Below, one piece after another: positions 1,990-58,278 of a DNA stretch of 64,000 bases. This stretch comes from Rhynchopus sp. YZ270_cl-10 (Eukaryota). Location: the NCBI GenBank assembly GCA_964035575.1, contig OZ037837.1, positions 1,240,001-1,304,000 of the forward strand, given 5' to 3'. The notes below the pieces were generated by a model, which ran no database searches, was not told the DNA's origin, and worked only from the letters and a program-made list of their open reading frames with translations. The position numbers and the translations under genes are program-made. Positions within the stretch are counted from its first letter, which is position 1; each line of letters opens with the position of its first letter.

Positions 1990-3543
1990 CCTGTAACTCC
2001 ACATAGGACCATTACCATGGTTTCGTTAGCCCTTGTGGCATTCCCCCTGCAGTTTCCTGCTCATCGGCGGCCTCTAGTCCGTGTGGACTTGGCCCACTAC
2101 CAGCTTCCGGAGGAGCGACGCTCACGTGCGAGCGTCGGACCGGTCACTGCTCTGGGTGCCATGTGCTCTAGCCAATTCTTGACGAGGATAGGGGTGCAGA
2201 CCGCCAAGTCCGGACGGTCGGAGGGAACCTTCCCCACCACACGTCAGTTCTCCTTAGCTCCTTGTGACTTGACTCGTGCCGGTGCTGGTGTCTACAAGCT
2301 TCAACCTCTTCTTGTGACCCACCGAGCACGCAGCCAACAGTGCGTCAAACCCTCAAGATCCTGTAGCACCGAGGATGTGTGAGCCCCAAGCGTCTGCGCC
2401 AGGACATACGCCGTCTGCCATCAAGCGGAGGGTGCTCCAATACTCCTCAGACACGAAGGAGCAATCACAGCGATCACGAACCACGCGATTGAGGCGGTTT
2501 CACAGGTGGTCAGCGGGAGGCTTCACAAAGCAACACCGCTTCCGGAGATGACCGGCTCCCCTCTTCCTCAACATGCACCAGAGCCCTATTTTTCACAAGC
2601 GGTCCCGAAACCTTAAAGTTTGCGCAAGCCCTGGAGTCATCCGATGACGCAAGGCAAGTCACTCTCCCAAAGCGATGCCATTGGATGGCAGTATCCGAAG
2701 TCAGACCTCCGGGAACTATTGAATCCTTAATGGACGACTTCAATGTGATCGCTGCCTTCTCCCTCTACGCCCCACCCTTCAAGAACACGGAGACTCGCAA
2801 GCTGCAAGTAATTTGAGGTTGTTTCTGCGAGCCCCGACCTAAACCGTTCATCTTCAGAGATATGTACAATGTGCGCACTACTTTCCGCAGGAAGAACGGG
2901 CCCATTTTGGGCTCCGACCTCAGAGGCCGTTTTCGAAGACAGCTACAGTGGGATATTTTGGTTCCTCAATTTTTTATAACAAAAGCGAAAATCTGCCTAT
3001 GTGCTTGAAAAATGCTGTGCATTTTTGGTAGAATTTTTTAAAAATTGCTATACTCCCCTATGACTGGACCCAACTCCCCTCACTCTTTTTTTGGTCAAAA
3101 ACCCCAAATTTTTCTACCGTTTTTTCCGTTTTTGACCTTTTTAGACACCCTCCACAGCAATTTTGTGATTCAGTTTCTGGTTTGCGAATCAAATTGGAAA
3201 CGGTGGAGTTTTCTTTGTATCGGAAGAGAGGCGCATATTGCAGAGGATAGAGAAACTGAAAAGTCGTGACACTCAAAATTGAGGAGCAGCCAACGAAAGG
3301 ATGATAGCCAGATTCAAAAGGAAAACATAGTGGAGCAGATCCTCGGGGTGTCCACACAACAGCAAAGCTTTCAAAAACAAAAGACCTCTCCCCTGGCAAC
3401 TGTTTGTTGTCTCTTGCACACCACACCACACCCTTCCACCCCCCTTTAAATGCGAAGTAGTTTGATTTGGATGTCTTGTGGGAAACGAAGCAACTAAGTC
3501 AGTAGGTACCCAAAACATCTGCACAAAACAGAGACACAACACA

Positions 3544-4680
3544 ATGGAAATATGTGTGAAGAGCTTTGACGGAGAGAAGTACACAATCGATGTGGGTGTG
3601 GATGACACAACTGAGGACATACGGCGGAAGGCGGCGTCTGCAGCAGAGTTGCGCGAAGACGGCTTTGACATAAGCTTTGGCGGGAAGGTGATGGCAGAAG
3701 GAGACGACACGACGCAGCTGAGTGCTGGGGACACGATTGTGCTGACGAAGACGAAGTCGGAGAAGGACGACGCCATTGCAGCTCTTTGTGCCTCCGCCTT
3801 GGGTGAGACAAGGCTGACCGCAGAGTGGTTCGAACGTCTGGCAGATCCCAATCTGGTTCATTTGTATCTGCTGGCGGAAGTTGTTACTGAGATCCCCTCT
3901 AACTGTTTAAAACGGGGCACGTTCGAAAAACTTGATCTCAGTGGTGTGTCAGTTGTGACTACAGTACGAGACCACTTCGTCTTTGACTGTACCTCATTGC
4001 ACACTGCTGATTTATCTGGGTGGGGCAATGTGACGCACATTGGGAGGGGCTTCTTCTATGGGTGCACCTCGTTGACGGCACTTGACATATCTGGGTGGCG
4101 CAGTGTGACGCAAATAGGTGACTCCCTCCTCTCCCACTGCAGCGCCTTGAGAACCGTTGACTTGTCTGGGTGGAGCAACCTGACCCAAATTGGGAACTCA
4201 CTTCTCCAGGGCTGCAGCGCGTTGACAACACTTGACTTTTCTGGATGGAGCAATACGACGGTAATAGGAGACTACTTCCTCCGCAGCTGCACCGAATTGA
4301 GAACCGTTGACTTCTCTGGGTGGAGCAACGTGACGCACGCCGGGCCCTTCTTCCTCTACAACTGCTGCGCCTTGACCACACTAGACTTGTCTGGGTGGAA
4401 CAAAGTGACGTACATTGACAAGAACTTCGTCAGCGAGTGCACCTCATTAACCAATCTTAACTTGTCCGGGTGGAACAATGTAACACGAATTGAGGACGAC
4501 TTCGTCTCCAACAGCTCGTTGACAACACTTAACTGGTCTGGGTGGATGAGTGTGACACATATTGGTCATGGAGCACTCAAGGCATGCGACATACGTAAAT
4601 GCAGCATCAACGTCACCGGATCGAGCAGTGTTGTGTCAGGGTTTGTTCACGCCAAGAAACGCCAGTGTGTGTGCATGTGA
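3544..4680 (+). CDS. Ubiquitin-like domain + BspA/LRR_5-type leucine-rich repeats + C-terminal CaaX
   Basis: N-term MEICVKSFDGEKYTIDVGVDDTTEDIRRK..FGGKVM (UBL pattern); about 9-10 ~25-aa repeats LxxLDLSGWxNVTxIGxxFLxxCxx; ends KKRQCVCM; first ATG at 3544. Confidence 0.88.
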   Translation: MEICVKSFDGEKYTIDVGVDDTTEDIRRKAASAAELREDGFDISFGGKVMAEGDDTTQLSAGDTIVLTKTKSEKDDAIAALCASALGETRLTAEWFERLADPNLVHLYLLAEVVTEIPSNCLKRGTFEKLDLSGVSVVTTVRDHFVFDCTSLHTADLSGWGNVTHIGRGFFYGCTSLTALDISGWRSVTQIGDSLLSHCSALRTVDLSGWSNLTQIGNSLLQGCSALTTLDFSGWSNTTVIGDYFLRSCTELRTVDFSGWSNVTHAGPFFLYNCCALTTLDLSGWNKVTYIDKNFVSECTSLTNLNLSGWNNVTRIEDDFVSNSSLTTLNWSGWMSVTHIGHGALKACDIRKCSINVTGSSSVVSGFVHAKKRQCVCM

Positions 4681-7911: not shown

Positions 7912-9316
7912 CAGTGTGACACAGAATTAATGGCCGATGACGACATTTTGTAAAAATTGTTATATTATTCTAAAAAATAGGCAAAATTTGACTCATTTCA
8001 TTGCATTTTCAACTGGCCGTGTATGAAAAGTGTGTGTGTGGGGAAAATATTAACATGGAAATATCCCTTTTTGGTAAAAAAGGGTGTATGTGTAAAAAAA
8101 AAAAAATACAGTGTAGCAGTACAAACGAGTGGGTGCACAAAAATAAATAGAGCATGCATTAGTATTTTGTGTGCATTCCGTTGGAATTGCGAACTGCGTC
8201 TAGGCGTCGTGGCATTGACATGATGTAACGTGCAACGAAGCTATTGTCCATCTTGGACCATTCCTTGTTGATGGCACGTTTAAGTGCTGACACGTCTTTG
8301 GGCTCCCGTTCGTTGACTGCAGTCTGCAGCTTGGCCCACAGGTTCTCAATAGGATTGAGATCAGGGGAGTTGCCTGGCCAGTCAGCTTTAGGGAGGAACG
8401 AGAAAGGTTGGGAGGAGAGGAATGCTTGAGTAACGTTCGCAGTGTGGCAGGGTGCCCCATCCTGCTGAAACGTGTAGCTACTGTCAGGCAGGAGTTCTTT
8501 TATTTCTTTGAGCGCTTTCTGTAAGACGAGCGTACGGTACTTCTCTGCATTGAGAGCACCGTCATAGAAATAGAGCTTCGTCTTACCTCTGGTGGTGATT
8601 CCTCCCCAGACGTGAACCTTCTGCGTAGCCCTGACCTTATCAACGGTTGGGGGCGGCTCATCACCATCTGCAACCCAGACAACATCGTTCTTCTTGCTCA
8701 CCCGAGAAAAAAGCCAAAAGTCTTTTTCATCGGTGAACATCACCTTTGACCAGTCGGTGTTTCGATGCGTTTCAGCAAACTCTATCCGGGCAGTGATGTT
8801 CTTTTCCGAGAGCTTTGGTTTGCTCTTCGTTTGAACGGGCTTCAGCCCCTTCTCCTTCAGGCACCTGCGGACACTCTCCCTCGAAATCTGTAGTCGCGAC
8901 GCTACTTTCCTGCAAGACTGAAACCGCTTGCCCCGCATGTGTCTAACCACCCTATTCTTAACGGTGTCGGTGGTGGCCGATCTCTTGCGTCCCCTCCCTG
9001 GCTTGTCCGAAAAATTCCGCTCTCCAGCGCGGTACTCCTTCACCCACCTACCCAAACTCCTCTTCGCAACGTTCAGCAACTCCGCCACCTCATCATGGCT
9101 CTTACCGCCAACAACGACTAGCGACGCTGCCTGTAGGCGCAACCCTTCCCTCGTGGCCTCAGTGTTCACTTTACCCTTAACCATTATATTTTTGCTTTTA
9201 TTGTGTTCCTGGGCGTAAATATTTTATGTTTTGGGGGTGTTTTGAATATGTCCTTGTCAAAATTTGCCGTTTTTTTATAAAATGTCTTCATCGGCCATTA
9301 ATTCTGTGTCACACTG
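7912..9316 (-). mobile_element. Full-length Tc1/mariner (IS630-Tc1-mariner) DNA transposon, 1405 bp
   Basis: 29-bp perfect TIR CAGTGTGACACAGAATTAATGGCCGATGA, extending imperfectly to ~45 bp; TA on both sides (7910-7911, 9317-9318); single transposase ORF. Confidence 0.96.
8159..9184 (-). CDS. Tc1-like transposase, DD37E
   Basis: N-terminal HTH regions, GRGRKR linker, FTDEK, VWGGI, FQQDGAPCH, WPGNSPDLNPIENLW; 37 residues between second D and E. Confidence 0.95.
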   Translation of the reverse strand: MVKGKVNTEATREGLRLQAASLVVVGGKSHDEVAELLNVAKRSLGRWVKEYRAGERNFSDKPGRGRKRSATTDTVKNRVVRHMRGKRFQSCRKVASRLQISRESVRRCLKEKGLKPVQTKSKPKLSEKNITARIEFAETHRNTDWSKVMFTDEKDFWLFSRVSKKNDVVWVADGDEPPPTVDKVRATQKVHVWGGITTRGKTKLYFYDGALNAEKYRTLVLQKALKEIKELLPDSSYTFQQDGAPCHTANVTQAFLSSQPFSFLPKADWPGNSPDLNPIENLWAKLQTAVNEREPKDVSALKRAINKEWSKMDNSFVARYIMSMPRRLDAVRNSNGMHTKY

Positions 9317-17427: not shown

Positions 17428-20400
17428 ATGTTCGGCCCACATGAGCAGGTGCAAGCATACGCAAAGCAGCACAGCATCCTGAAGCTGGTCGACGAGCTTG
17501 TGAACGAGCTGCTTCAGCATAAGCCGTGCGACCCGTTGGCGCACCTGGCGTGCTACATCGACGGCCTGCGTGGGGCAGCGCCTGCGACGGACGTGGAGAA
17601 GAACAAGCTTGCGGCAGAAGGCAGCACTGCGGCGTGCGCAGAGGTGTCGCACACCTCGAGCACATCATCATCGCTCGAAGCGGCGCTGGGGACACTCTGG
17701 GACGCGTGCAGACCCAACCACGCGACGTTCAAGGAGCGTTTCGAGAAGGACGTTTCGCAGGGCCTTCGAGATGTGCTTGCGACAGTCTTCGCGAAGGCCG
17801 GGAAGGCGAAGGGGCAGGCCGGGAAGGGACAGGAGGCAAAGGACACACCTGTGCAGACACAACTGAAGTTCGACGCCTCAGCAGACGTGACGCAAGCAAA
17901 TGCGGGACAAAGTGTGCAGCTGGTGGACCCCTACAGCGCCGAGTACAGACCCACGCAGAGTGTGTCGGAGGTGGTCGACGGGCTTGCAGACTGGTTCGGA
18001 CCTGGACGGAAGCTGTGGCCGCGGAGTGCTGTGGACAGGGTGAAGCACAACTGCACCTTCATGCAGCACAAGCACAACTACGGGGAGGTGGCGGAGGTGG
18101 TGGTGCCGCTCTTCATCTACTCGATTGCGGTCATGAAGGAGTACACGTGGGCCTTCTGGGTGGCCTCGGATGGGCGCGGACGGTGGACGCCGTTCTCGTC
18201 GGTGCACGCAGTTGTGCTGGAGAAGGACTTCCTTGCGCACTGCACGAAGGACGGGGCACCCCTGTGTGGGGAGGACGAAGACCTGACACGTCCACGGGGG
18301 CTGCCGCTCGCACCACTGAACGGCACCATCACAGAGGCAAGGCGTGCGCTTGCAAGGGTTGCGGAGGACACGAAGGGTGCGGGCACCACCCCCAGCAGGC
18401 AGCCGGCTCGTGCCGCCTTCGAGCTGCCCACGCAGATGCAGGTGGTGTTCTGCGACGGGCGCATGGTGGGCGGCAGCAGCAGCGAGGGGGACGAACGGGG
18501 GCGTGGCTTTGCAGGGAAGGTTGGTGGGGTGTTTGCGGGCTGGGAGGGGCTCACGGTCTTTGTGAGCACGCCCTTCCTTGAGGGTTGCAAATGTCGTGAT
18601 GAGGTCACCAGCACCACCACCACGAACACGACCAAGGACGTGGCAAAGGAGTTCTACATAGCACGGTACAAACTGGCAGATGTGAGGGCAGAGTACGAGG
18701 CTGCTTTGCGTGCAAACACGCAAAGCACGGCGGATGCGGAGACACTCGCGAGCCTGAAGAAACGTGTTGCGCTGCACCCGTACTCGGACTCGGTTGCGTG
18801 GCTTCCGGCCCCGTCCTGCATCTTTGAAGGCCTCCACACTGCGACGGCGGACGTGCAGCGCACACAGACGATGTCTGTGTCTCTCGCACGACTGCCCCCA
18901 CCCGGTGTGCTGGAGTACTTGCAAAGCAGACGCACCTGTGAGCACCTTGAGATTGCCGAGGGTGGTCTGCACTATCTGCGTTCGGAGGATGCGTTTGCGT
19001 GCCGTGCGCGTGAGGAGAAGGTGCTGCTTGCGGGGAGGAAGGACAAGGTGGCGGGGACAGAGACAGCGTACGTCCGCTGTGACGACAGCTGCTGCTTCTT
19101 CTGTGCGGTGGGTGCGCTGAAGGACCGTTGCGTGCGCGAGAAGAACCAGCAGCAGTACGACAAAGGCTGCAAGGAAGACCTCGACGCACTGAGTACCGAG
19201 CACAAACAAGACTACAGCCCGTTCCAAGCGCTCGTGGCACACAAGGTCGCCATCGCCGTGCGTGAGGCCCCCGAAGGCCAGGCACCGACGCCGCTGACGA
19301 TCCTCCACGCTCTCGACATCCAGGCCGTGTACTGGTCCTCGGCAGGCGTGGCAGACTGGACACACGTCAAACAACCCCTGCACGCTTCGCTGTCTGGGAA
19401 GAACAAGTTCATTGCCGTACCTGGAGCAGACGTGCCACCGTGTGTGCTGTACAAATCCTGCTGCGAGTTCGCGAAGCAGCCGTACTACGTCTTGAACGCG
19501 TCGATGCGTGATGCGCAGAACAAGGCACACAAGACGCAGATCACAGTGACGCGCAAGGACAAGACGAGCGAGGTCTTCTGTGCACGCAGCGTCGCGTCGC
19601 TTGGGAAGGGTATGGGCACGCTCCGGGAGGTGGCACGCAAGCACGCGACCCTGAGGACCTGCCTCAGAGACCTGATGAAGCTGTCGCACCAGACGTGCTT
19701 CGAATCCGAGACGAGCGGGACGTCGGTCTGGTACACGTCACGCGACATCATCGAGGATAAGAAGAAGGACGACACCCTGCCGCGAAGCGACGAGGACTAC
19801 CTGAACCCTGTGCACCACAGCGGGCTTGGCTACTACCGGTACACGGCACGGTACGACAAGGAGGCACCGGAGTACATAGAACCAAGCACGATGAAGGTGC
19901 AAATGGGGGACTGGGTGTCGGGGCAGGTGCGGCCGCTGCTGTTCTACGTGAACGAGGCAATGAAGGAGATGTCGCCTGTGCTGTCGTACCGGGGGTGGCG
20001 GTGTGCGCCGGAGACAGAGCAGAAGTGCTACCGCGGGCTTGGGAACGCACGCCTGCCCCCTGAGCTCTACGCAACGGGGAACGTGGTGGTGTGGTCTGCG
20101 TTCTCGTCGACGTCGACGGACCAGGGCATCTCGCAGTTCTACGCCAGCTCCGCGAGCGGGATGACGGCGTCGGTCTTCATTGTGACAGGGTCGTCTTGCA
20201 GGCTGATCGCACCCTGGAGCAGGTTCGGCCGTGAAGAGGAGTGGCTGTTCCCACTGAACTCAATGTTCAAGGTGGACTCGATGCTGACGGAGGACCAGCA
20301 GTCGATTCTCGGGAAGAAAGACTTCCAGCTCTTCGAGATCTCTGAGGTCGACGAGCTGTCGATGGAGAAGATCCGCATCCGCTGCTCCCTGGCAAGCGCA

Positions 20401-23400
20401 CAGACGAAGGAGGTCGCGCGTGTGGTCTTCTCAGCAGTGTCTGCAGTGGACTCTGGGAACGGTGTTCTCGACCTTTCCCTGAAGAGCGCAAGCGAAGGCT
20501 GTGTGGATGCGAAGTGGGTGTACACAGTTGTAGTGAACTTCGACGCACTCCAGCTGTCGCCTGTGATGACAAGCAACAGCACGAAGCTTTGCACTGGCAA
20601 CGTGGCCGACAGCTGGAACAGTTTCCTGTCCGATGCCCACAAGCTGAATCGCTTCACCCACGAGCACCCCTGTGTGATCTTTGACAAGTCCTCGGAGGAG
20701 GGGCGGCAGGTGCTCAACGCAGTGTCTTTGGTTCTCGGCCTGCGCCACTCGAAAGCGCTCACGTTTGTTGAGGTGACGTGCCACCTGAAGCCCTCGAAGG
20801 CGAAGGACGCCCGCAGCCTGCAGGAGGAAGAGAACGCAAGCTCGGGCTACTACCAGCTGAAGGCGATGAACCCGACGGAGCAGTGGGAGGTGAGCATCGA
20901 GATGCGGCGTGAGGATGGCCAGGAAGGGCTTGCTTTTCTCGATGCAGGTGCTGTGCTGCTGCACAAGATCATCGCGAAGCAGGTGCACCTGGTGAGGGTT
21001 GACATCCGCAACAACGGTGTCGGTGTCGAGGGTGCGGAGCTCCTTCTGCAGGCGCTGCGTGTCAACAGGCATGTTGTGCAGCTCAGCATCTGCGACACTG
21101 AGCAGCAAAACCAAAACCAAAAGCAAAAGCAAAGACCTCTGCAGGTGCGTGACACACACACATGCGACGCAGAGGACGGGGACGATCCACACCTGGGGGA
21201 GGTTGCGGCACAGCGCATGATGCACATCCAGCAGGTCATCAACATCAGGTGTGCGCACAACAGAGGCACCCTTGTGTCAAGCACGTTCTCCGACCTGGGT
21301 GACACCTGGCCGCAGTGCGCCACGGAAGCGCTGTACGACGTGGACGTGGTGGATATGGCCTTCTCGGACCTGTTCGACACCCGCCAGCGTGAGGCTGTTC
21401 TCTTCATCGAACTCCTGCAGAAGGCGGTTGACGCACAGCACCACTCAGCACAACAGGAACTTGCTTCGAACAGGACGTACCCAAAGCTCCCCGGCGCGCT
21501 TGTTGCTGCTGCGCGTTGGTGCGACGCGTCGGTGATGACGTTGCTTCTGGACATGCAATGCGACGCCTGCGAGACGGACGCGTTTGGCGAAACACCACAA
21601 CTGAAGATGTCGCGCCGTCAAAACAGAGGCACAGAGAACTATCTTGATGCCTGTGATCGCTCGCAAGACCTGGCGCAGCGCCTTCACGTGTGTCTGGACA
21701 GGCTCCAGCCTGCAGTGCTCCGGTACGACGAGCCGCTGTGGAAGGTGAAGAACTTTGCGCTGGAGGTGATGCGGATGGCAGACGACCGTGAACACATCTC
21801 TCTCGCAGCTGAGCTGATCCGCAACGTGCGTGCCCGCTACGAAGCCTTCTTTGGGAACGAGCCTGCTGCGCTGTGCGCATCTGAGTACGCCGTGCACGTG
21901 GAGCGCATGATGCACGACATCATGGAAGTGTGCAAGACGTGCTCCGTCCTGGCTGTGCTGCAGTGCCCTCTCCGCCGTCAGGAAGCAAGCCTCTTCTGTC
22001 TCAAGGTGCTTTGCTCGCGTGGGAACGAGCTCTTTCCCCTTGTGGATGCAACAGACGAGATGCGTGCAATGACCGATATGCGCAGCACAGGGCGCAGGAA
22101 GTGTCAAGGTGCCGCTGGGTACCAGAGTTGCGCAAAATTGTGCAATCCGAGAAATCAGTTCAGACAGGAGCAGTGGTCTGCTCTTGCTGAGGAGGAGGAG
22201 CTTCCACGCAGAATGGACAAGAACGGAATCCGCTACTTCGAGCACGAAGTTGCTTTGCAGGACACGGAACCATGGTCAGATATGCAAGAGGCAGACGTGT
22301 GCAGCACGAAGCGCAGAATGTACGAAGGCAGCTACGTTACAAAGCAGCAGTATCTGGACACGGTGTGGAGCACAGCCGAGGAGGAGCCGAAGCAGATACG
22401 CAGGCAGAACGCTGACGGCTACTTTGTCTTCAAACACGACTGGGATGAAGCCGTGGAGGGCGGTGCGTGGGAGGACGGGAAGAAGGAGACACTGCCGACG
22501 CTTGTGGAGCAGTTGCGGCAGCCCTCTCTCAACCTGTACGACCCAACGGTGTTTGGGAGCCGCATTGAAACGGAGGAGAGCAGGGCCCAGCTGCACACGT
22601 GGTCGAGGCTGTGGGGTGCTGTGAACGCTGTGCTGGTGACAAGCACGGAGAAGGAGCGGGTGCTCTTCCGCAAGGTGGAGAATGTGGCGGACACTGTGCT
22701 GATCCACCACCTCCACCTGAAGCGTGGTGAGCTGTACTGCCAGCCCGACATCACTCTCTGGGATGTGGAGCGCCGCTACAGAAACCGTGCTGTGAAGCAC
22801 GAGAAGGACAGCAGAAGCGAGACACAGGAAGCAAGGACGAAGGTGGACTTCACGTCTGACTTCAACGACAACTCAGGAAGACTCTGGAAGGCGTCAGAGC
22901 GCAGATGGACAGGGAGGGGTGGCGAGGAGGCTGCGTATGAAGGCGAGCTTTGCTACGAACATGAGTTCAAAGACAAATGCATGCAGGCACACAAGCAGGC
23001 ACGCAAGGAGAGAGGGGAGGACGTGGGGTTTGATCTGAACACGTTACTCAGATGGGAAGATGCGAAGCCTGAGGACCCTTTCCTGACACACGTCCCTGGC
23101 GAGCAAGTTGAGGTGGAGACACGCAAGAAGAGCAGCAGCACCATGACAACGATTCTCTTCAGCGCGCACGGGAAGATGCACGGCGAGTGTGTGGGGCTGC
23201 TGAGCGACGGACACGACTTCCTCCTCCCTGCGCTTGAGATGTTTGTTGTGGAGGATGTTCAGGCACGTGGCACGTGCCTCCATGTCAGCCTCATCTCACG
23301 TGGCTCGCTGCTGCGCACGGACAAAGAGCTCCGTGCCTGGTGCTCTGGCATACAGCGGACTGGCCTGTCTTCTGTTTGGGGCAAGAACGGTGCTGCGGAT

Positions 23401-25645
23401 GAGTGTTTGCGTCCTGAGAACAAGACAGCAAAGGACGATACATTGGACAGGCAGAGCTTCGTGCGCACAGACGAGTGTGACGTGTTCTTCAGCCGTGAGT
23501 CTCAGATGCTCCACGGAACGGAACGGGAGGCAATGTTGCACGATCTGATGGACACTGTCAGACCTGTGAATGACAGCGCATCTTTCAAGATGCAGGGTGC
23601 AAAGGGACAGGTGAGGAACCATGGTGCGTGCACCCTGCCGGAGGCTGTGCCCAGTACGTACCGCCCAGGGAAGACGTTTTTGAGTGGGTTGAACCGCAAG
23701 AAGCGTCCTGAAGGGGATCACACTGCAGAAGGCATGCCAAGACCACACGGTGACGAACTCCCAAACATCCCGCACGTGGAACTCGCGGAGGATTGGGAGA
23801 AGGATATAGATGTGAACGATGTGGTCACTGTTTCGGGAGCATCCATCCAGGCCTACCACGACGAGCACACAGACGAAGACGCGTTCTTCAAGACGATAGT
23901 CAAGCATGCGCGTGACACACCTGAGGAGTGCCCCCCGCCTGTGAGCGATGTGTACGGAAGGAAGGAGTTCCGCATCACTGTCGGGGAGGTGCAGCAGCTG
24001 CTGAAGACAACCACGATAGTCACGTCGCCGTCCCTCCCACTGCGTTTTGTGCAGTGTCTGATCGGCTCGTTCACGTCTGCGAAACAGCGTCTGCTGTTCT
24101 TCAGAGTATTCCGTGCAACGTCGTTGCTCAGCATCGGCAATAAAAAAGATTGGGAACGTGCGAAACGGATTATCAGAGATGCTGTGCAAAGTTTTGTTGC
24201 AAGGGACGAACAAGGCCTAGACTCTGCACGTCGTGACCTGGATGCACGTGGCGATACGAGAAGCTACTACATCCATCTGCTTCTCCTCAGCCTTACTAGA
24301 CAACAACTTGAGTATCTGGACGGCAACCTTGATGACGACGGTGCAGAGCCTATTGAAGTCACCCGTGACAAGTTCACATCGTGGATGGCCACCGTACAGG
24401 CGGAACCTGCACACTACGGCTTCACCTCAAAGGAACATGCGAGACAGACGTTGGCGAAGTCGCTGGTCGAACTGAGCACAGAAATGTGCGTCTCGCAGCA
24501 GGGCTTCTCCTTCACCTCCGGCACGGACGGTGAGCACAGCCAGCTCTGTGAGAAGACGCACCACAGCATCGCCATCCTTGTGGCCACTGGGATGAACTTC
24601 TGTGACCGAAGACCCACCCTGCGTGAGGCACCAAAGTACTTCGTGAGAACAGCACGTGAAGGAACAAAGGCACACGAGGGCTGGACCTACTTCCAAGAAG
24701 GGAAGGAACGTGAATTTGTGGACCGTCTGAAGGTGCTGTACACATGCATCTTCGAATCTGCAAGGAAACAGCGTGTGCGGAACATGTGTGCCATCCCTGT
24801 GTATCTTGCTACTTATTCTGCTCGCCTTGGGTTTGAGCTGAAACTTGAAGTTGCAGAAATGTACTTGCGTGCGCAGTTCGAACTCCTTGCAGAACAGGAT
24901 TGGGGTTTTGAAAACGTATGCATGCTCTTTGTCTTGCTTTGTCTCACTTCTTGCTCTTTCATGTATGCGATACTGTCCTCCCCTCCTGCAACTAAGAAGG
25001 AGGACAGTCAAGCTGTCTGAATGGCGGCCACACTAAAGCAACAGATTATCAAGAACAAGAAAACAACAGCAGCAGAAAACCAAAACCCCATCTTTGTTTC
25101 AAAGACTTTATTGTGTTCCTCTTTCACATTACCTTTAAATCACTGCACAACAGTACTGGTTGAGGGCTCAGGATGACACCGATATGGCACGCCGCATCTT
25201 GAAGAAAGGACTGCACGAGTGTGGCGACTACAACAACGAGGCACAGGGGTTGTATTTGAGGTGCAACATCGTTTTGCACAAGAAAGACGCGAAGTTTCTT
25301 GCAGTACGCCTCGCGCAGCTGAAGAAATCACCTTCGCTTTTGTCCCCATCTGAATCGCCGGCACTGCTGCAGGGACAGCACGGCATGTTTTGGGAGGAAG
25401 CGAGGGATACCTGGTACACGGACGGAGCAGACTGGGCGGCCACATCGACAGGTGCGCTGATGAACTACAACATTTCGAAGAAGGCACTTAACCTCGACTT
25501 TTCTGCATTGAACAGCACCAGCTCCGTTGCCGATGAAGGTGATGAAGACTTCGCTGCAGTTGGAAGACGGATGAATCGGCCGTTGCGGGCTTCGCGTTGC
25601 AGTGGAGGAGACGATAGCGCAGCTGCACTGAACGGACGTGGCTAG
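17428..25645 (+). CDS. Giant multidomain protein: RIIa/Dpy-30-like docking helix, R-S-E ADP-ribosyltransferase, RI-type LRR, ankyrin-like segment, degenerate second ART-like region, macrodomain-like C-terminus; predicted intron 24916-25153
   Basis: 7.5-kb open frame from ATG 17428 (YAKQHSILKLVDELVNELLQHKPCDPLAHL); ART motifs CYRG (~20026), FSSTS (~20101), REEEWLF (~20230); IRNNGVGVEGAELLLQAL; GTATGC..ACAG phase-0 intron joins in frame to ORF 25154-25645. Confidence 0.82.
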
Positions 25646-26538
25646 CGTACCAACAAAGGCGGAGGGTCTTATTACCGTTTCCGTAAAAAATGTTGTGTGT
25701 TTTGCTTTTGGTATATTTTCCCTGCATCAGTGTTTTGATCTTTTTCGGTTTTCCAACCAAGAAGCAAAGTCTTCACTGCATGCACAGTGTTATGTTACCC
25801 TTTTTTATGTTCAGACAAATAATTTGTGGTGGTAAATGATTCAAACGAGAATTTTCTTCATTTCGTTCAGTTAGTCTGACTATTATTTTGCGATGTTTGC
25901 TGACTGTTCCACAGAACGGAACTTGTATGCGATATTTGCCTGGATTGGCAGCAATACGCATGTGCACGGAATACTACACACAACCTTTATAATTTCCTGG
26001 TCGCGATAGTTTTGCAAACTTTCCTGCAGTCAACGCAGGGAAATAATAATAAACGATACAGGATATTGGGTGGTTCAGTGATTCCACAGAACCGACGCCA
26101 TTGATGTGTCTCAACCAAAACCAAATCAATTAAAAAAGAGAGAGCGTTTGAAGTAAAGAAAATTGTTTTCGTTTCTTTTGACTGCATATCCATCTAAAAA
26201 GGGAAGAGTTTTATTTTCCCCTGTTTACAGTCTTTTGAGCAACAAGCAAAGAGTAACGAGTCTCTCGAGCCTTTTTGTACTCCTATTCTACAAAAGTGGC
26301 ATATTTGAGCCACACCACAAATACAAAATGCTTCTTGCCACCCCTTCATCACGCCCTCACCACCACCACCACCACCACCCCCACCAGCATTACAGGCATC
26401 CTTGCCTCTCTTCCCCACAACACACAACACACAACACACCTTTTCTTTCCTCCATACCCTCCTCCCCTCCCCTCCTTTTTCACTACATCCTTCCGTAGCC
26501 TTTCGTTTTCTGCCACCCACCCCCCTGCCCCCCTATCA

Positions 26539-33558: not shown

Positions 33559-34188
33559 CCACTCTTGCACTAGGTCTGCCTGAGTGAGCATCTGGTTTAG
33601 ATCACTGGATGACTACTGCTACTGCTACTGCTACAATAACCACTCTTGCACTAGGTCTGCCTGAGTGAGCCTGGTTTAGATCACCGGATGACTACTGCTA
33701 CTGCTACTGCTACAATAACCACTCTTGCACTAGGTCTGCCTGAGTGAGCCTGGTTTAGATCACCGGATGACTACTGCTACTGCTACTGCTACAATAACCA
33801 CTCTTGCACTAGGTCTGCCTGAGTGAGCCTGGTTTAGATCACCGGATGACTACTGCTACTGCTACTGCTACTGCTACTACTAACCACTCTTGCACGAGGT
33901 CTGCCTGAGTGAGCCTGGTTTAGATCACCGGATGACTACTGCTACTGCTACTGCTACTGCTACAATAACCACTCTTGCACAAGGTCTGCCTGAGTGAGCC
34001 TGGTTTAGATCACCGGATGACTACTGCTACTACTTCTGCTACTACTTCTTCTACTACTTCTGCTACTACTTCTGCTACTGCTAGAATACTGCTATTGCTA
34101 CATCTAACTCCTCTGCACTAGGTCTACCTGGTTGAGTGCGACTTGTGATTGCTAAACCGTTCACGACACGTGATCTGCCTGGATGAGA
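33559..34188 (+). repeat. ~80-bp tandem repeat (about 6-7 visible copies) in the 5' region of the retrotransposon
   Basis: Unit CCACTCTTGCACTAGGTCTGCCTGAGTGAGCCTGGTTTAGATCACCGGATGA(CTACTG)nCTACAATAA starting at 33559, 33640, 33719, 33798, 33884, 33969. Confidence 0.93.
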
Positions 34189-34388
34189 NNNNNNNNNNNN
34201 NNNNNNNNNNNNNNNNNNNNNNNNNNNNNNNNNNNNNNNNNNNNNNNNNNNNNNNNNNNNNNNNNNNNNNNNNNNNNNNNNNNNNNNNNNNNNNNNNNNN
34301 NNNNNNNNNNNNNNNNNNNNNNNNNNNNNNNNNNNNNNNNNNNNNNNNNNNNNNNNNNNNNNNNNNNNNNNNNNNNNNNNNNNNNNNN
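34189..34388. other. Assembly gap, 200 N
   Basis: N run. Confidence 1.
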
Positions 34389-34395
34389 TCACACC

Positions 34396-35853
34396 ATGGA
34401 TACCCTGCGTCTGGTGATGAGTGAGATGGACGTCCTGCGCCAGTGCGCTGTCGACAAGACGCCTCCTCCACCTTCCTTCTCCACTGCTGTCTCCGCGCAG
34501 CTCAACGACGCCTACGACTTGGTTGTCAGGTCCGAGCACGCGCCTGACGACTCCCACGTGCGCTCCGTGGCCGCTTGTGTGGTGTGCGAGATAGTCGCTG
34601 CCAGGCCTGCGTCATCCCCCGCGCCCTCCATCGCTGCCATCCTGCGCATCACTGCTGTTGTGACTAAGTACAACCTGGTGCACCTCGCAGAGCTTCCGGC
34701 GGTCCTTCCTACCCCCGCTTCGTTGTCGACGGACGGCTTGCAGGACGGTGACATTGGCCTTGTCCTCGCGACCCTGGCTGCCATTGCCAAGACTGCCGCT
34801 GCCGCCCCTGCCACCACTACTAATGCTTCGTCCTCCTCCCGCGCCCCGCGGAAGACGATCAACATCGTCCAGCGACTGCGTGAACTGGGGTTGGAGAACC
34901 TGCCGGAGCTTCTTCTCCCCAGCCAGGACCTCGTGCGGGCCATCCAGCTCAAGCGCGAGGACGGGTGCAAGCTCCCCCTGCAGCTGGACCCCAAGGGTAA
35001 GATTTTGTTCCCCCCCAATGCCGCACACTCTGTTTCTTTCGTCCCTTCTTCTCTAGACTTGAACGAGCAAGTGGTAGATGCGGCGGGGCTCGCCTACACG
35101 GTTGAGGGGGTACGTGAGGCCAAGCAAGCACTCCTCCTTCAGACTTCGGCGAAGTTGAAGAATGAAGTCCTCCCCCCTCTGCTACACTCTCTTGTCCGCG
35201 CCAGGCACGCGATAGCCTTAATCGTCTGCGAGGCGGTGGCACCACGCGACTACCTACGTCTCCTCCTCCTAGTCACCTCCATTATGCCTATTGTAGCGAC
35301 ACATGCTATGCTCCAGAACCGGGGGACGCGGGCTTGGGTCTCCACCACCTACGAGTCGTGGATTTTCCAGCGAGTCCACGAGTCTTCGGCGGAGACCACC
35401 GTTTCTGATGCGCTCTCTCTTCTTCAGAAGCTAGACGTAGATAAGATTCGGCATCTCGACTTGTCCGGCTCCGGTATCGTCGAGAGCTCTGCTGGTGAGG
35501 AGTACTCAGGTGGTGGCTACACAGGTGGTGGCAACACAGGTGGTGGCAACACAGGTGGTGGCAACACAGGTAGTGGCAACACAGGTAGTGGCAACACAGG
35601 TAGTGGCAACACAGGTGGTGGGAACTCAGGTGGTGGGAGGTCAGGCCGTGCACGCCGTACCCGACCGGCCCCCTCCTATTCCCCGTACGAGCCGCCGCTC
35701 CAGCATCCTGCCCCGTATGCGCCGCCGGCTTTCGAGGTCATCAGGCCCTCCGACGCGAAGGGGCGGAAGGGGAGCAAAGGGGACAAAGGTGACAAAGGCA
35801 CGCCTAAGACCCAAGGGAGACATGCGAAGGGGAAGGGCAAACGCCAAGAATGA
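34396..35853 (+). CDS. Gag-like ORF1 of the YR retrotransposon
   Basis: First ORF of the element; GGGNT/GSGNT 15-nt repeats and basic KGRKGSKGDKGDKG tail; start could lie in the gap. Confidence 0.7.
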   Translation: MDTLRLVMSEMDVLRQCAVDKTPPPPSFSTAVSAQLNDAYDLVVRSEHAPDDSHVRSVAACVVCEIVAARPASSPAPSIAAILRITAVVTKYNLVHLAELPAVLPTPASLSTDGLQDGDIGLVLATLAAIAKTAAAAPATTTNASSSSRAPRKTINIVQRLRELGLENLPELLLPSQDLVRAIQLKREDGCKLPLQLDPKGKILFPPNAAHSVSFVPSSLDLNEQVVDAAGLAYTVEGVREAKQALLLQTSAKLKNEVLPPLLHSLVRARHAIALIVCEAVAPRDYLRLLLLVTSIMPIVATHAMLQNRGTRAWVSTTYESWIFQRVHESSAETTVSDALSLLQKLDVDKIRHLDLSGSGIVESSAGEEYSGGGYTGGGNTGGGNTGGGNTGSGNTGSGNTGSGNTGGGNSGGGRSGRARRTRPAPSYSPYEPPLQHPAPYAPPAFEVIRPSDAKGRKGSKGDKGDKGTPKTQGRHAKGKGKRQE

Positions 35854-38040
35854 CTGCCCCTCGCATCTCCTCTCCCTACACCCGCTTCCATTTACACGCC
35901 CCTCCCTCCGCCCGATAGCCTCCTGCATAAGGTCTGGCTCCGATCTGACGCACTCCTTCCCGAGCGCACTCCCGATCCCGATCTTGATGAACCCATCGCT
36001 ACTAATATCCCACCCCGCCTCTCACATACTTTCCTGAAGCAAAAAGGGCTCTACGCCACTGTAGAAGCCTCTTCCTTTGAAGACCACCTGAGATGCGTCT
36101 CTTCTCTCGTCATCGACCCGGTGACCCTCCCTGACCTTGATTCCGATTTGGTGGCGTGCTGTGCATCTTACGCATCGCGAACCGCGCCGCAGAACAGGGC
36201 TTTTCGGAAGGACCGGATCAGTTATTGGGAGTCCAGGGGTTCTTCTCTTCGCGCCAATATACCTCTCTTCAATTCCTACTTCGATCCCTCCCATCCCGCC
36301 AAGGACATTGCGATGCGGATAAACGTCCCTCTCGTCGAAGAGCTTCTCCTTGCGATGGGTGCCGCCGCTCCGGGGGTACAGAATGAGTTCGTCAAGCGTC
36401 TGGGCTTCGGCTTCCCTGTTGTTGATGACCTCTCTGAGGTGGGTGTCTTCGACCCTAAGCTCAGCCGCAGTACGAAGAAGGTTGTGATCTCGTCGAAGTC
36501 CCTTCTTGTCACCCATGAGGCTAGCGTACTTCATTCTCTGCGTCGGCGTTGCGTTGAAGATGGTGACCTTCACGAGATTAGCTCACAGCTTTCTGCGGAA
36601 GTCGACAAAGGCTGGCTGGAGGGTCCATACACTCCTGAGTCCCTCCCCGTCGACTCCTTCATCCCCATCCGTCGCTTCATCGTGGCGCAAGGACAGAAGC
36701 GACGTGGGTGCGATAATGCGCGACCGACGAACAAGGGCACACGCATCCACACACCTATTTCCCTGTGCGGAGTGGACAATGCTGTGGCCACGGCGCTGTG
36801 CTTGCAGTCGCATGGTGTCCCCAAGCTTGCTATGGCTGTTCTCGATCAGAGCGATGCCTACAAGTCGCTGATCGTTGACGCCACGCAACGCCGCTACGCT
36901 GTGATTGTCGCGGTGGACCCCGTCTCACTCCAATTGCAGTGTTTTCTGAGCAACGTCCTCTGCTTTGGGACTGAGAGCGCGGTTCTGGACTACAACGTGC
37001 TCTCACGCTTCGTGGTTTGCACCGCTCGCAGACAGTTGGGCATCCCTACATCAGGATATTTCGATGATTTCCTCCTAATGGGCAGCGAGGACGACGCTGA
37101 GTCGATGGCGGACGACTTCCAACACCTCTTCTCGAACGTCATCGGCCTTGTCTTCAGGGACGCCAAAAAGCGTGTAGGTTCGTTGTTGAAGTACCTAGGC
37201 GTCTGTATTGACTTGTCGGCCCCCCCCCTGATTACCTGTCGCATAGCTGATGACCGACAGTGCTCCCTGATTGCGAAGATTGAGTCCATCCTGTCCGCCA
37301 ATTCCCTCTCCTCCACCGATGCTGCAAAACTGCTAGGTCAACTATCGTTTGTCCAGCAGAATATGTGTGGTGCCGTGGGTAGAGCATATCTTCACCCTTT
37401 GTATTCGAGACAGTACTCTAAGTCTCACTTTTTAGTTCTTGGAGCCCGCCTGGAGGGGGCTCTTGTGTGGTGGTTACACGCGCTCAAGCGCTCTACGTTT
37501 TTCAGAATAATTGACCCTCGTTTTATTTCCTCTCCATGTTCACCCCTTTGTGTTTACACGGATGCCTCCTTGGGCTTGTTGGGTGTTTGTATTTTGTACA
37601 AGCAATACCGTTACTATGGCGGCTGCTTGTCAGCCCTGACACATCGAGAGGAGGCGAACATCCAATTATACGAAACGGAGGCCGTACTCTCGGCACAATG
37701 TTTCTGTAACCATTTCTTCTCCTCCCTTTTCCCCTCCCTCGACCTCCCTTACCAGCAAATTCCCCAAGTGTTTTTCGTTGATAATGAGTGTGCTCAAGTG
37801 ACCCTTGTAAAAGGGTACGCTAAACGCATTGTTATTAATGCTATGGTCCGATCCTTCTGGTCTGAGTCGGTCTCATCTGGGGCCTCTCGTGTGTGGCTGG
37901 AGAGGGTTGCTTCTGCAGCTAACATTGCGGATATGCCGTCGCGAAGTCTGGGTCGCATTCAGTGGCTAGAGGAACGTGGCTTCCGTTACCTTAAGAACTT
38001 TGAGAGCGTTTTCGCTTCGAGAGAGTTCCACGAATGGTAA
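35854..38040 (+). CDS. Reverse transcriptase - RNase H (pol), in frame with gag
   Basis: KRRGCDN, LDQSDAY, LCFG, GYFDDF, KYLG; RNase H VYTDAS, LYETE, FVDN, NIADMPSR; frame is open from the gag TGA onward. Confidence 0.93.
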   Translation: MPLASPLPTPASIYTPLPPPDSLLHKVWLRSDALLPERTPDPDLDEPIATNIPPRLSHTFLKQKGLYATVEASSFEDHLRCVSSLVIDPVTLPDLDSDLVACCASYASRTAPQNRAFRKDRISYWESRGSSLRANIPLFNSYFDPSHPAKDIAMRINVPLVEELLLAMGAAAPGVQNEFVKRLGFGFPVVDDLSEVGVFDPKLSRSTKKVVISSKSLLVTHEASVLHSLRRRCVEDGDLHEISSQLSAEVDKGWLEGPYTPESLPVDSFIPIRRFIVAQGQKRRGCDNARPTNKGTRIHTPISLCGVDNAVATALCLQSHGVPKLAMAVLDQSDAYKSLIVDATQRRYAVIVAVDPVSLQLQCFLSNVLCFGTESAVLDYNVLSRFVVCTARRQLGIPTSGYFDDFLLMGSEDDAESMADDFQHLFSNVIGLVFRDAKKRVGSLLKYLGVCIDLSAPPLITCRIADDRQCSLIAKIESILSANSLSSTDAAKLLGQLSFVQQNMCGAVGRAYLHPLYSRQYSKSHFLVLGARLEGALVWWLHALKRSTFFRIIDPRFISSPCSPLCVYTDASLGLLGVCILYKQYRYYGGCLSALTHREEANIQLYETEAVLSAQCFCNHFFSSLFPSLDLPYQQIPQVFFVDNECAQVTLVKGYAKRIVINAMVRSFWSESVSSGASRVWLERVASAANIADMPSRSLGRIQWLEERGFRYLKNFESVFASREFHEW

Positions 38041-58023: not shown

Positions 58024-58278
58024 AAGGGCTTCTCTTCAGCAGTCCAGGGGTGTGCTGTAAACTGCGTTCTGAAAAGTAATCTAGAATTCGAAGAGAGAGA
58101 AAAAAACACACCCACGTAGCAAAAGTGGATCTCCTGCGTGCGGCTGTCGAGAGCCTAGGCAGTACACCCACAGGGGTACCTTCTGTTGCTCTTCTTGCCG
58201 TGGGTATCCTCTCGTCACGCCCACATCCTCGTAACACATCTGCAAAAGGGATAAAAAAAAACTTTTTACACTAGTAAG

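What the first reader, a model, noticed from the sequence alone, without database searches (positions are those of the whole stretch)
17428..25645. Giant protein combining an ART writer with a macrodomain-like eraser/reader
Seen: intact R-S-E motifs (YRG, SSTS, EEE); a second decayed ART-like stretch (VNAVL..VLFRKV..LLPALEMFVVED, ~22600-23300); a C-terminus with LKVLYTCIFESARKQRVRNMCAIPVYLATY and, after splicing, LLSPSE..QGQHGMFW..YTDGADWAATST. Inference: these resemble macrodomain/bacterial-PARG-like elements in permuted order with the acidic pair apparently lost, suggesting an ADP-ribose-binding or self-regulating module. The RIIa/Dpy-30-like N-terminus suggests docking on an AKAP-like scaffold. 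The macrodomain call is tentative.
Basis: partly seen in the sequence, partly recalled or inferred. Interest (0 to 1): 0.72.

Follow-up and report, generated by a model that had tools for sequence, protein, structure and literature searches.

The report
Diplonemid fused ADP-ribose writer and eraser
This gene, likely from a marine protist (a diplonemid), encodes a giant protein that joins an enzyme predicted to attach ADP-ribose tags to a domain predicted to share the fold of a rare tag-removing enzyme; many relatives keep both intact, but this copy has lost the remover's pocket residues and likely only writes the tag.

Summary
The gene is two exons (17428-24915, 25154-25645; 2659 aa spliced; intron inferred from homologues). 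It has an RIIa/Dpy-30-type docking domain, an R-S-E ADP-ribosyltransferase (ART) with an intact ExE motif, a second ART-fold domain without the catalytic motifs, and a C-terminal macrodomain. The macrodomain is not DUF2263/PARG. The closest orthologue's model (pLDDT 93) matches the permuted Larg1/MavL class: Z 21 to Larg1, 15 to MavL, 8 to bacterial PARG. No Pfam model hits it. The fusion is conserved across diplonemids: 21 of 22 ART homologues carry the macrodomain, and 11 of 18 fusions seen whole keep all pocket motifs. A reverse-order fusion exists in a euglenid. The window's copy belongs to a recent expansion and has changed both diphosphate-loop glycines and the acidic pair while keeping structural residues. 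It is probably a writer with a dead eraser, and less likely a reader. Sister copies keep the intact motifs. Known analogues are PARP14 (different ART and macrodomain classes) and the Legionella Ceg3/Larg1 pair (separate proteins). Eight literature searches found no description of this fusion. No activity was measured. Verdict: new variant of a known kind, interest 0.6.

The parts
17428..24915 (+). Exon 1 (aa 1-2496)
   Evidence: Open frame; start supported by aligned homologue N-termini; donor GT at 24916
17440..17574 (+). RIIa/Dpy-30-type dimerisation/docking (D/D) domain, aa about 5-49
   Evidence: Family profile hits FAP385 (E 1.6e-5), PKA RI-alpha D/D (8.6e-5), Dpy-30 (0.004); Pfam RIIa in 7 of 10 family members at E<=1, the window's own at 13.5 bits, under the cut-off of 22.4
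17845..19890 (+). Family-conserved regions of unassigned fold (aa about 140-275 and 480-820); the later part may be an expanded helical lead-in of the ART (inference from a recalled motif)
   Evidence: Conserved in homologues; no meaningful Pfam hit
19924..20304 (+). R-S-E ADP-ribosyltransferase, aa 833-959: R in CYRGL (20026), SSTS (20104), ExE (20233-20241)
   Evidence: Pfam PF01129; SpvB alignment E 3.5e-4; R, S and catalytic E in 23 of 23 rows, ExE in 22 of 23
20986..21045 (+). Possible leucine-rich repeat (weak)
   Evidence: LRR_6 E 0.034, under cut-off
21490..21610 (+). Possible ankyrin-like repeat (weak)
   Evidence: Ank_4/Ank_2 E 0.007-0.022 in 3 of 17 homologues scanned, all under cut-off; none for the window protein
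22486..23346 (+). Pseudo-ART: ART fold without the STS and ExE motifs, with an insertion of about 110 aa in this clade
   Evidence: Model of homologue P0021 (pLDDT 85.6) matches R-S-E ARTs: Foldseek E 8e-6, Z 10-11; motifs not conserved in 20 aligned rows
23944..24915 (+). Larg1/MavL-class permuted macrodomain, first part, with a helical insertion; degenerate diphosphate loop at 24790-24816
24916..25153 (+). Intron, 238 nt, GT..AG, phase 0
   Evidence: Sequence; homologues contiguous across it; same break point in other genomic gene calls
25154..25501 (+). Exon 2, macrodomain second part: adenine-side Asp kept (HKKD), LSPSE at 25340, DGAD in place of GEED at 25421-25432
25502..25645 (+). Exon 2 tail and stop codon
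   Evidence: not conserved in homologues

Best explanation
The gene encodes a giant protein, likely diplonemid, in which an intact R-S-E transferase predicted to add ADP-ribose to arginine is fused to a domain predicted to have the Larg1/MavL-type macrodomain fold; intact family members would erase the tag, whereas this copy has lost the pocket residues and likely acts as a writer only. Shown by sequence: the domain order, the intact ART motifs, the family-wide fusion, and the pocket changes. Predicted: both folds, from models of homologues. Inferred: the protein dimerises and docks through its N-terminal D/D domain (scaffold unknown; flagellar scaffolds are candidates); the ART uses NAD+ to modify an arginine on a docked target or on itself (activity about 0.85, arginine about 0.7); the pseudo-ART and repeats serve as adaptors; the intact macrodomain hydrolyses an ADP-ribose linkage (about 0.8; that it is the ART's own mark about 0.55); this copy's macrodomain is catalytically dead (about 0.85) and binds ADP-ribose poorly (about 0.6). 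Duplication has thus produced a mix of reversible and write-only copies.
For: ART: (ExE in 22 of 23 rows); residues 901-1000 are 99-100% identical in 5 of the 9 nearest copies and 88-89% in the other 4. Macrodomain fold: orthologue P0017 model pLDDT 93, pTM 0.93; Foldseek's top rows are all Larg1, CG3568, CG2909 or MavL; Z 21.1 (rmsd 3.9, 285 aligned) to Larg1, 15.3 (3.9, 251) to MavL, 8.4-8.5 (2.9-4.0, about 150) to bacterial PARG. The family profile independently picks Larg1 as top PDB sequence (E 0.015) and aligns GMGFF with GLGVF, the D351 position with HxKD, and INPSD with LNPSD. Fusion: 21 of 22 ART homologues carry the domain, one only its start; named sources are Diplonema, Rhynchopus, Artemidia, Namystynia and an 'Hpha'-prefixed transcriptome. 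Pocket loss: loop glycines are G in 134 of 141 and 126 of 140 rows (window Y, A); the acidic pair is E in 121 of 137 and 120 of 138 (window G, A). The window differs at 9 of 54 conserved columns: 5 of 7 pocket columns, 4 of 47 others (pocket set chosen after seeing the data). In Larg1, D372A, N379A and E387A lose ADP-ribose binding (PMC10989772, passage). Sister copies keep GLGV[FY] and GEED.
Against: No activity was measured. The spliced window protein itself was not folded; folds come from homologues at 45-49% (macrodomain) and 39% (pseudo-ART) identity. The family lacks the GN[DE] catalytic-loop motif of the arginine-specific class and has a PARG-like Glu-Glu pair instead (PMC10951314), so its substrate may not be arginine. 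The match of GEED to Larg1 E387 is inferred from the aligned range ends, not from a residue-level superposition. The window keeps the adenine-side Asp and has conservative F-to-Y and D-to-E changes, so some binding may remain. The intron rests on homology. That all near-identical copies lie in one genome is inferred.
Confidence: 0.6

Rival explanations
1. The window copy's macrodomain is a reader: it has lost catalysis but still binds ADP-ribosylated targets and keeps the writer on its own marks.
For: Fold-defining columns kept (43 of 47 non-pocket columns), adenine-side Asp kept, aromatic lid residue changed only F to Y. In Larg1, the Phe283 mutation did not affect binding (PMC10989772, passage). 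Reader macrodomains sit beside the writer in PARP14 (PMC10470015, abstract start).
Against: Both diphosphate-loop glycines are replaced, one by tyrosine; this loop binds the diphosphate through its backbone in MavL (PMC10951314, section 9). The acidic residue inferred to match E387 is gone, and E387A loses binding in Larg1. The loop differs again among the newest copies, unlike a maintained pocket.
Confidence: 0.17
2. The family macrodomain is a hydrolase for another linkage (acidic residues, poly-ADP-ribose, nucleic acid or free ADP-ribose derivatives), so writer and macrodomain do not act on the same mark.
For: Glu-Glu pair as in the PARG signature; GN[DE] motif absent. Many family members have no ART hit and are fused to kinases, NADAR or other domains (35 of 168 proteins hit both profiles).
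Against: Closest solved folds are all arginine-specific enzymes (PMC10951314). The partner ART has the ExE motif (established marker of arginine-directed R-S-E ARTs, own knowledge). The two domains are also fused in reverse order in P0110 and P0092.
Confidence: 0.13
3. The window copy is a redundant duplicate under relaxed selection, and the pocket changes are early decay without functional meaning.
For: Many near-identical copies; different losses in different copies, including one with a damaged ART motif (P0010).
Against: 7.5 kb of open frame; ART 98-99% identical to the nearest copies; changes cluster in the pocket, not the core; degenerate macrodomains recur in 7 of 18 complete fusions from other sources.
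Confidence: 0.06
4. The protein is a weapon against prey, bacteria or viruses, and the macrodomain is built-in self-protection that some copies have dropped.
For: Toxin-type ART fold; lineage-specific expansion with fast-changing segments next to the ankyrin-like region and in the macrodomain insertion.
Against: No hydrophobic signal or membrane segment in the spliced product; intracellular D/D domain; conserved architecture across the named diplonemids; dropping self-protection while keeping the toxin would be costly.
Confidence: 0.04

Closest known systems
Larg1 (Lpg0081) with Ceg3 (Lpg0080), Legionella pneumophila
   Same: Permuted macrodomain with the diphosphate loop before the catalytic loop; shared GxGxF, adenine-side Asp and NPSD; paired with an ART that it counteracts (PMC9191684, passages and sections 9-10).
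   Different: Two separate secreted effectors there, one eukaryotic polypeptide here; 13-14% identity; the family lacks GNE and has GEED; the window copy has lost the pocket residues.
MavL / DUF4804 arginine-specific macrodomains (MavL, Drosophila CG2909, CG3568)
   Same: Fold and topology (Z 14-15); Atlas neighbours carry PF24754 MavL in 32-40% of members at score 0.88, a lead only.
   Different: Signature WDxx[SA]xPGN[DE][FY][FWY] absent; no Pfam MavL hit in 60 family proteins scanned; no ART fusion mentioned in the passages read.
PARP14 (writer, reader and eraser in one chain)
   Same: ART and macrodomain hydrolase in one giant protein (PMC10470015, PMC10499325; search listing and abstract starts).
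   Different: PARP14 has a PARP-type ART and canonical macrodomains (own knowledge); here an R-S-E ART and a permuted Larg1-class macrodomain.
Bacterial PARG / DUF2263 (PF10021)
   Same: Macrodomain core (Z 8.4-8.5); a Glu-Glu pair at the start of a helix in intact family members.
   Different: Order of the two loops is reversed; alignment covers only model residues up to about 350; GGG-x6-8-QEE signature absent.
R-S-E ARTs (SpvB, C3, HopU1, vertebrate ecto-ARTs; PF01129)
   Same: R, STS and ExE motifs and fold.
   Different: No signal peptide or delivery domain seen; embedded in a 2659-aa protein with a D/D domain, a pseudo-ART and a macrodomain.

Membership tests
R-S-E ART (first ART domain) | Arg in strand 1 (YRG) | tested here: met
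   CYRGL aligns with SpvB YRGL; 23 of 23 rows
R-S-E ART (first ART domain) | S-T-S motif | tested here: met
   FSSTS aligns with SpvB FMSTS
R-S-E ART (first ART domain) | Catalytic Glu, with ExE | tested here: met
   EEE aligns with SpvB EAE; ExE in 22 of 23 rows
R-S-E ART (first ART domain) | Pfam PF01129 above cut-off | tested here: met
   24.9 bits against 22.3 on a 500-aa piece; 22.1 on the whole protein
R-S-E ART (first ART domain) | NAD+-dependent transfer to arginine | not testable with these tools
   Needs an assay
R-S-E ART (second domain) | ART fold | tested here: met
   Homologue model: Foldseek E 8e-6; Z 10.9 (rmsd 5.2, 139 aligned) and 10.3 (2.8, 116)
R-S-E ART (second domain) | STS and ExE catalytic motifs | tested here: not met
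   Absent in all 20 aligned rows
Larg1/MavL (DUF4804) arginine-specific macrodomains | Permuted macrodomain fold | tested here: met
   Orthologue model, Z 21.1 to Larg1, 15.3 to MavL; not tested on the spliced window protein itself
Larg1/MavL (DUF4804) arginine-specific macrodomains | Diphosphate loop [VIL]xGxGxGx[FWY] | tested here: not met
   Window has IPVYLATY; the family keeps the last two glycines and the aromatic residue (PxGxGxF)
Larg1/MavL (DUF4804) arginine-specific macrodomains | Catalytic loop WDxx[SA]xPGN[DE][FY][FWY] | tested here: not met
   Family has NPSD like Larg1 but no GN[DE]; window has SPSE
Larg1/MavL (DUF4804) arginine-specific macrodomains | Arginine-selective hydrolysis | not testable with these tools
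   Needs an assay
Bacterial PARG / DUF2263 | GGG-x6-8-QEE signature | tested here: not met
   Family GEED without GGG; window DGAD; signature as in PMC9191684 section 9
Bacterial PARG / DUF2263 | Canonical order of macrodomain elements | tested here: not met
   GxGxF precedes the acidic loop in sequence; fold groups with the permuted class
MacroD-type hydrolases | NAAN, GGG and G[VIA][FY]G motifs | tested here: not met
   Not seen in the family motif table; motifs as listed
RIIa/Dpy-30 D/D domains | Two-helix D/D sequence profile | tested here: met
   Family profile hits FAP385 at 1.6e-5 and PKA RI-alpha at 8.6e-5; the window alone is under Pfam's cut-off
RIIa/Dpy-30 D/D domains | Dimerisation and binding of an AKAP-type helix | not tested
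   No complex prediction run; partner unknown

The most novel reading that the evidence does not exclude
Diplonemids run an intracellular arginine ADP-ribosylation switch in a single chain: an R-S-E writer and a Larg1-class eraser of a so-far unnamed family, docked by a D/D domain on a scaffold such as the flagellar axoneme. Recent duplicates repeatedly disable only the eraser pocket, making write-only copies that set how long the mark lasts. The same two domains were fused a second time, in reverse order, in a euglenid.
Probability: 0.35. Interest if true: 0.8.

Novelty: new variant of a known kind. Interest (0 to 1): 0.6.

Why it matters
Arginine-directed macrodomain erasers are known from two Legionella effectors and two Drosophila proteins (PMC10951314). 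This adds a family of 276 representatives that Pfam misses and that is closest to Larg1, in protists and in at least one Legionellales bacterium. It also adds an R-S-E ART fused to such a domain, a parallel to PARP14 from different parts. The Glu-Glu pair on a Larg1-type fold makes the family a test of what sets linkage specificity between PARG and Larg1. Natural intact and degenerate copies allow a direct comparison without engineering.

Tried and rejected
No whole genome is held for the window, so copy number and dN/dS were not measured. No RNA holder was listed; the runs laid are contigs that cross the intron unspliced, which says nothing on expression or splicing. Single-contig depth in the gene is about 7-8 times that of the upstream flank; this fits many copies but is not a copy number. 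A word-based search with the end of exon 1 found nothing among 2970 candidates, a miss, since later searches found many relatives. The five-row profile found no relevant PDB sequence; the 68-row profile gave Larg1 at E 0.015 and an 18-row one at E 0.054, behind an unrelated lectin at 0.045. Pfam gave no macrodomain family for any member. ART1 against ART2 by BLAST (E 0.81) and profile-profile (probability 0.2, same as controls) showed nothing, nor did the ART2 profile against PDB sequences; only the fold did. A WWE-like look at aa about 232-265 (recalled motif) had no Pfam support. The N-terminal region (aa 80-820) stays without an Atlas result. The tree is the quick version without bootstrap and was used only to place the window among recent copies. 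Rejected: the hydrophobic read-through tail (aa 2496-2518) as a membrane anchor, because it is intron sequence and differs among copies. Literature: searches listed no paper on this family or fusion; subscription papers are largely not covered, a review on ART evolution could not be opened, and no supplements were read, where homologue lists for Larg1/MavL could mention these proteins. Three look-ups of earlier scan findings returned nothing.
Full report
Gene model. The frame from ATG 17428 is open to 25020, and a second frame runs to 25645. A GT..AG intron of 238 nt (24916-25153, phase 0) gives a 2659-aa product. The splice is inferred: three homologues found with exon 2 align with the end of exon 1 and with exon 2 in one run, transcript-derived proteins do the same, and genomic gene calls, including two from Diplonema papillatum, stop matching at the same profile position. 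The named relatives of the full-length protein are diplonemids, the closest Rhynchopus euleeides P0017 at 35%, so the window is likely diplonemid.

Writer. Residues 833-959 match Pfam ART and SpvB (E 3.5e-4), with CYRGL, FSSTS and EEE on SpvB's YRGL, FMSTS and EAE. A search with residues 800-1010 gave 22 proteins among 426 candidates of 1391-4428 aa. R, S and the catalytic E are kept in 23 of 23 aligned rows and ExE in 22 of 23. ExE marks arginine-directed enzymes in this clade (own knowledge). Activity is inferred.

Second ART-like domain. Sequence comparisons with the first ART were negative. A model of the compact homologous segment of P0021 (10-row alignment that includes the window's segment; pLDDT 85.6) matched R-S-E ARTs (Foldseek E 8e-6; Z 10-11). 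The STS and ExE motifs are absent in all 20 aligned rows, so it is an old pseudo-enzyme, likely an adaptor.

C-terminal domain. A profile from five rows found 276 representatives at E<=0.001, of which 150 were listed. Pfam names no macrodomain in 60 of them and their kin (3, 57). The P0017 domain, folded with a 68-row alignment (pLDDT 93, pTM 0.93), matches Larg1, then MavL, CG3568 and CG2909, then bacterial PARG (Z 21.1, 15.3, 15.0, 14.1, 8.5). The same alignment as a profile picks Larg1 first among PDB sequences (E 0.015) and pairs GMGFF with GLGVF, the D351 position with HxKD and INPSD with LNPSD (numbering from my count with an offset of 15). The permuted order is the one described for Larg1 (PMC9191684, sections 9 and 10 read). 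The family departs from the MavL-class signature (PMC10951314, passages and sections 9 and 11): it has no GN[DE], and it has a conserved GEED that recalls the PARG Glu-Glu pair. So it works like Larg1 by fold but is not filed as a member, and its substrate is open. That GEED matches Larg1 E387 is inferred from the aligned range ends.

The fusion is a family trait. Of the 22 ART homologues, 21 carry the macrodomain (P0018 only its start; P0014, 1418 aa, ends before it). Of 168 proteins hit by any of three profiles, 35 hit both the first-ART and macrodomain profiles, counting the window and two isoforms of P0017. Of 18 fusions in which both halves of the macrodomain are visible, 11 keep GxGx[FY], the PSD/PCD aspartate and the Glu-Glu pair, and 7 do not (read by eye). 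Two proteins have the domains in reverse order, P0110 from the euglenid Ploeotia vitrea and P0092 from an MMETSP transcript; both ARTs show ExE, and their macrodomain motifs are partly changed. Many members have no ART hit.

This copy. The window differs from the family at both loop glycines (134 of 141 and 126 of 140 rows have G), at the NPSD aspartate (121 of 143) and at both glutamates (121 of 137, 120 of 138). Of 54 columns conserved at 80% or more it differs at 9: 5 of 7 that I assign to the pocket and 4 of 47 others; P0017 differs at 4, none in the pocket (Fisher p 0.0007, with the pocket set chosen after seeing the data). In Larg1, D372A, N379A and E387A lose ADP-ribose binding, D351A lowers it tenfold, and the Phe283 mutation does not affect it (PMC10989772, passage). 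The window keeps the D351-equivalent and an aromatic lid, so weak binding cannot be excluded.

Recent expansion. Five cluster members lie on a contig of 1.30 Mb; four show the degenerate loop, one is a fragment without it, and P0175 is identical to the window in the region used for the tree. Other near copies keep GLGV[FY] or GLGLF (P0007, P0008, P0011-P0013) or have a different change (P0009, P0010). Contigs of two runs show sister sequences reading GEED at the place of DGAD and another reading EGGD, and representative P0103, 69% identical to exon 2, is intact. Among nine copies, residues 901-1000 are 88-100% identical while 1401-1600 and 2201-2300 fall to 42-73% in the seven copies outside the window's sub-clade. 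That these copies share one genome is inferred.

N-terminus. A ten-row profile of the first 50 residues hits FAP385 (E 1.6e-5), the PKA RI-alpha D/D domain (8.6e-5) and Dpy-30. Several other hits are flagellar proteins (own knowledge of the names), so axonemal docking is a lead. No hydrophobic signal or membrane segment is seen in the spliced product.

Comparison and verdict. PARP14 unites writer and eraser in one chain (PMC10470015, PMC10499325; listing and abstract starts only) with other domain classes. Ceg3 and Larg1 are a matched pair as separate proteins (PMC9191684, passages). A survey of viral NAD+-ADP-ribose systems does not name MavL or Larg1 (PMC9503650, passages). Searches listed nothing on this family or fusion; supplements were not read. 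I rate it a new variant of a known kind, interest 0.6, with confidence 0.6 in the write-only reading of this copy.

Noticed in passing
window 58255-63348 (+): 1697-aa open frame with at least 11 WD40 repeats in its C-terminal third; N-terminal part not examined.
   Followed up: no
window 3466-4680 (+): Ubiquitin-like domain followed by BspA-type leucine-rich repeats.
   Followed up: no
window 8159-9223 (-): Open 354-aa frame of a Tc1/IS630-type DDE transposase.
   Followed up: no
window 34174-38040 (+): Two consecutive frames separated by one stop; the second has a weak reverse transcriptase hit (E 0.018), likely a retroelement.
   Followed up: no
window 25993-26300: Very high-copy repeat just downstream of the gene (summed contig depth 19,000-101,000).
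   Followed up: no
P0110, P0092: Reverse-order fusion (macrodomain first, R-S-E ART last) in Ploeotia vitrea and an MMETSP transcript, probably an independent fusion.
   Followed up: partly
P0048, P0057, P0064, P0068; P0028-P0030: Family macrodomain fused behind a protein kinase in four proteins, and present in three or more copies in proteins of about 4400 aa.
   Followed up: no
P0133, P0137, P0143, P0155, P0124, P0132, P0142, P0159, P0146: A distant clade with a shorter catalytic loop, fused to lpg1496 N-terminal, NADAR, cytidylyltransferase-like or RasGEF domains; one member is from a Legionellales bacterium. Possibly unrecognised effectors of this macrodomain type.
   Followed up: partly
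P0085 (Urceolus cornutus): Macrodomain protein without an ART hit that also starts with an RIIa-like segment (E 0.0025), suggesting the docking domain goes with the eraser too.
   Followed up: no
P0010: A near copy with a changed first Glu of ExE and a four-residue gap in the ART, plus an altered macrodomain loop.
   Followed up: no
window 24916-25020: Reading into the intron gives a hydrophobic tail that automatic gene calls include; an artefact to be aware of.
   Followed up: yes
window about 18120-18225: A W..W..L-E pattern that looks WWE-like by eye (recalled motif), conserved in part in homologues; no Pfam hit.
   Followed up: partly
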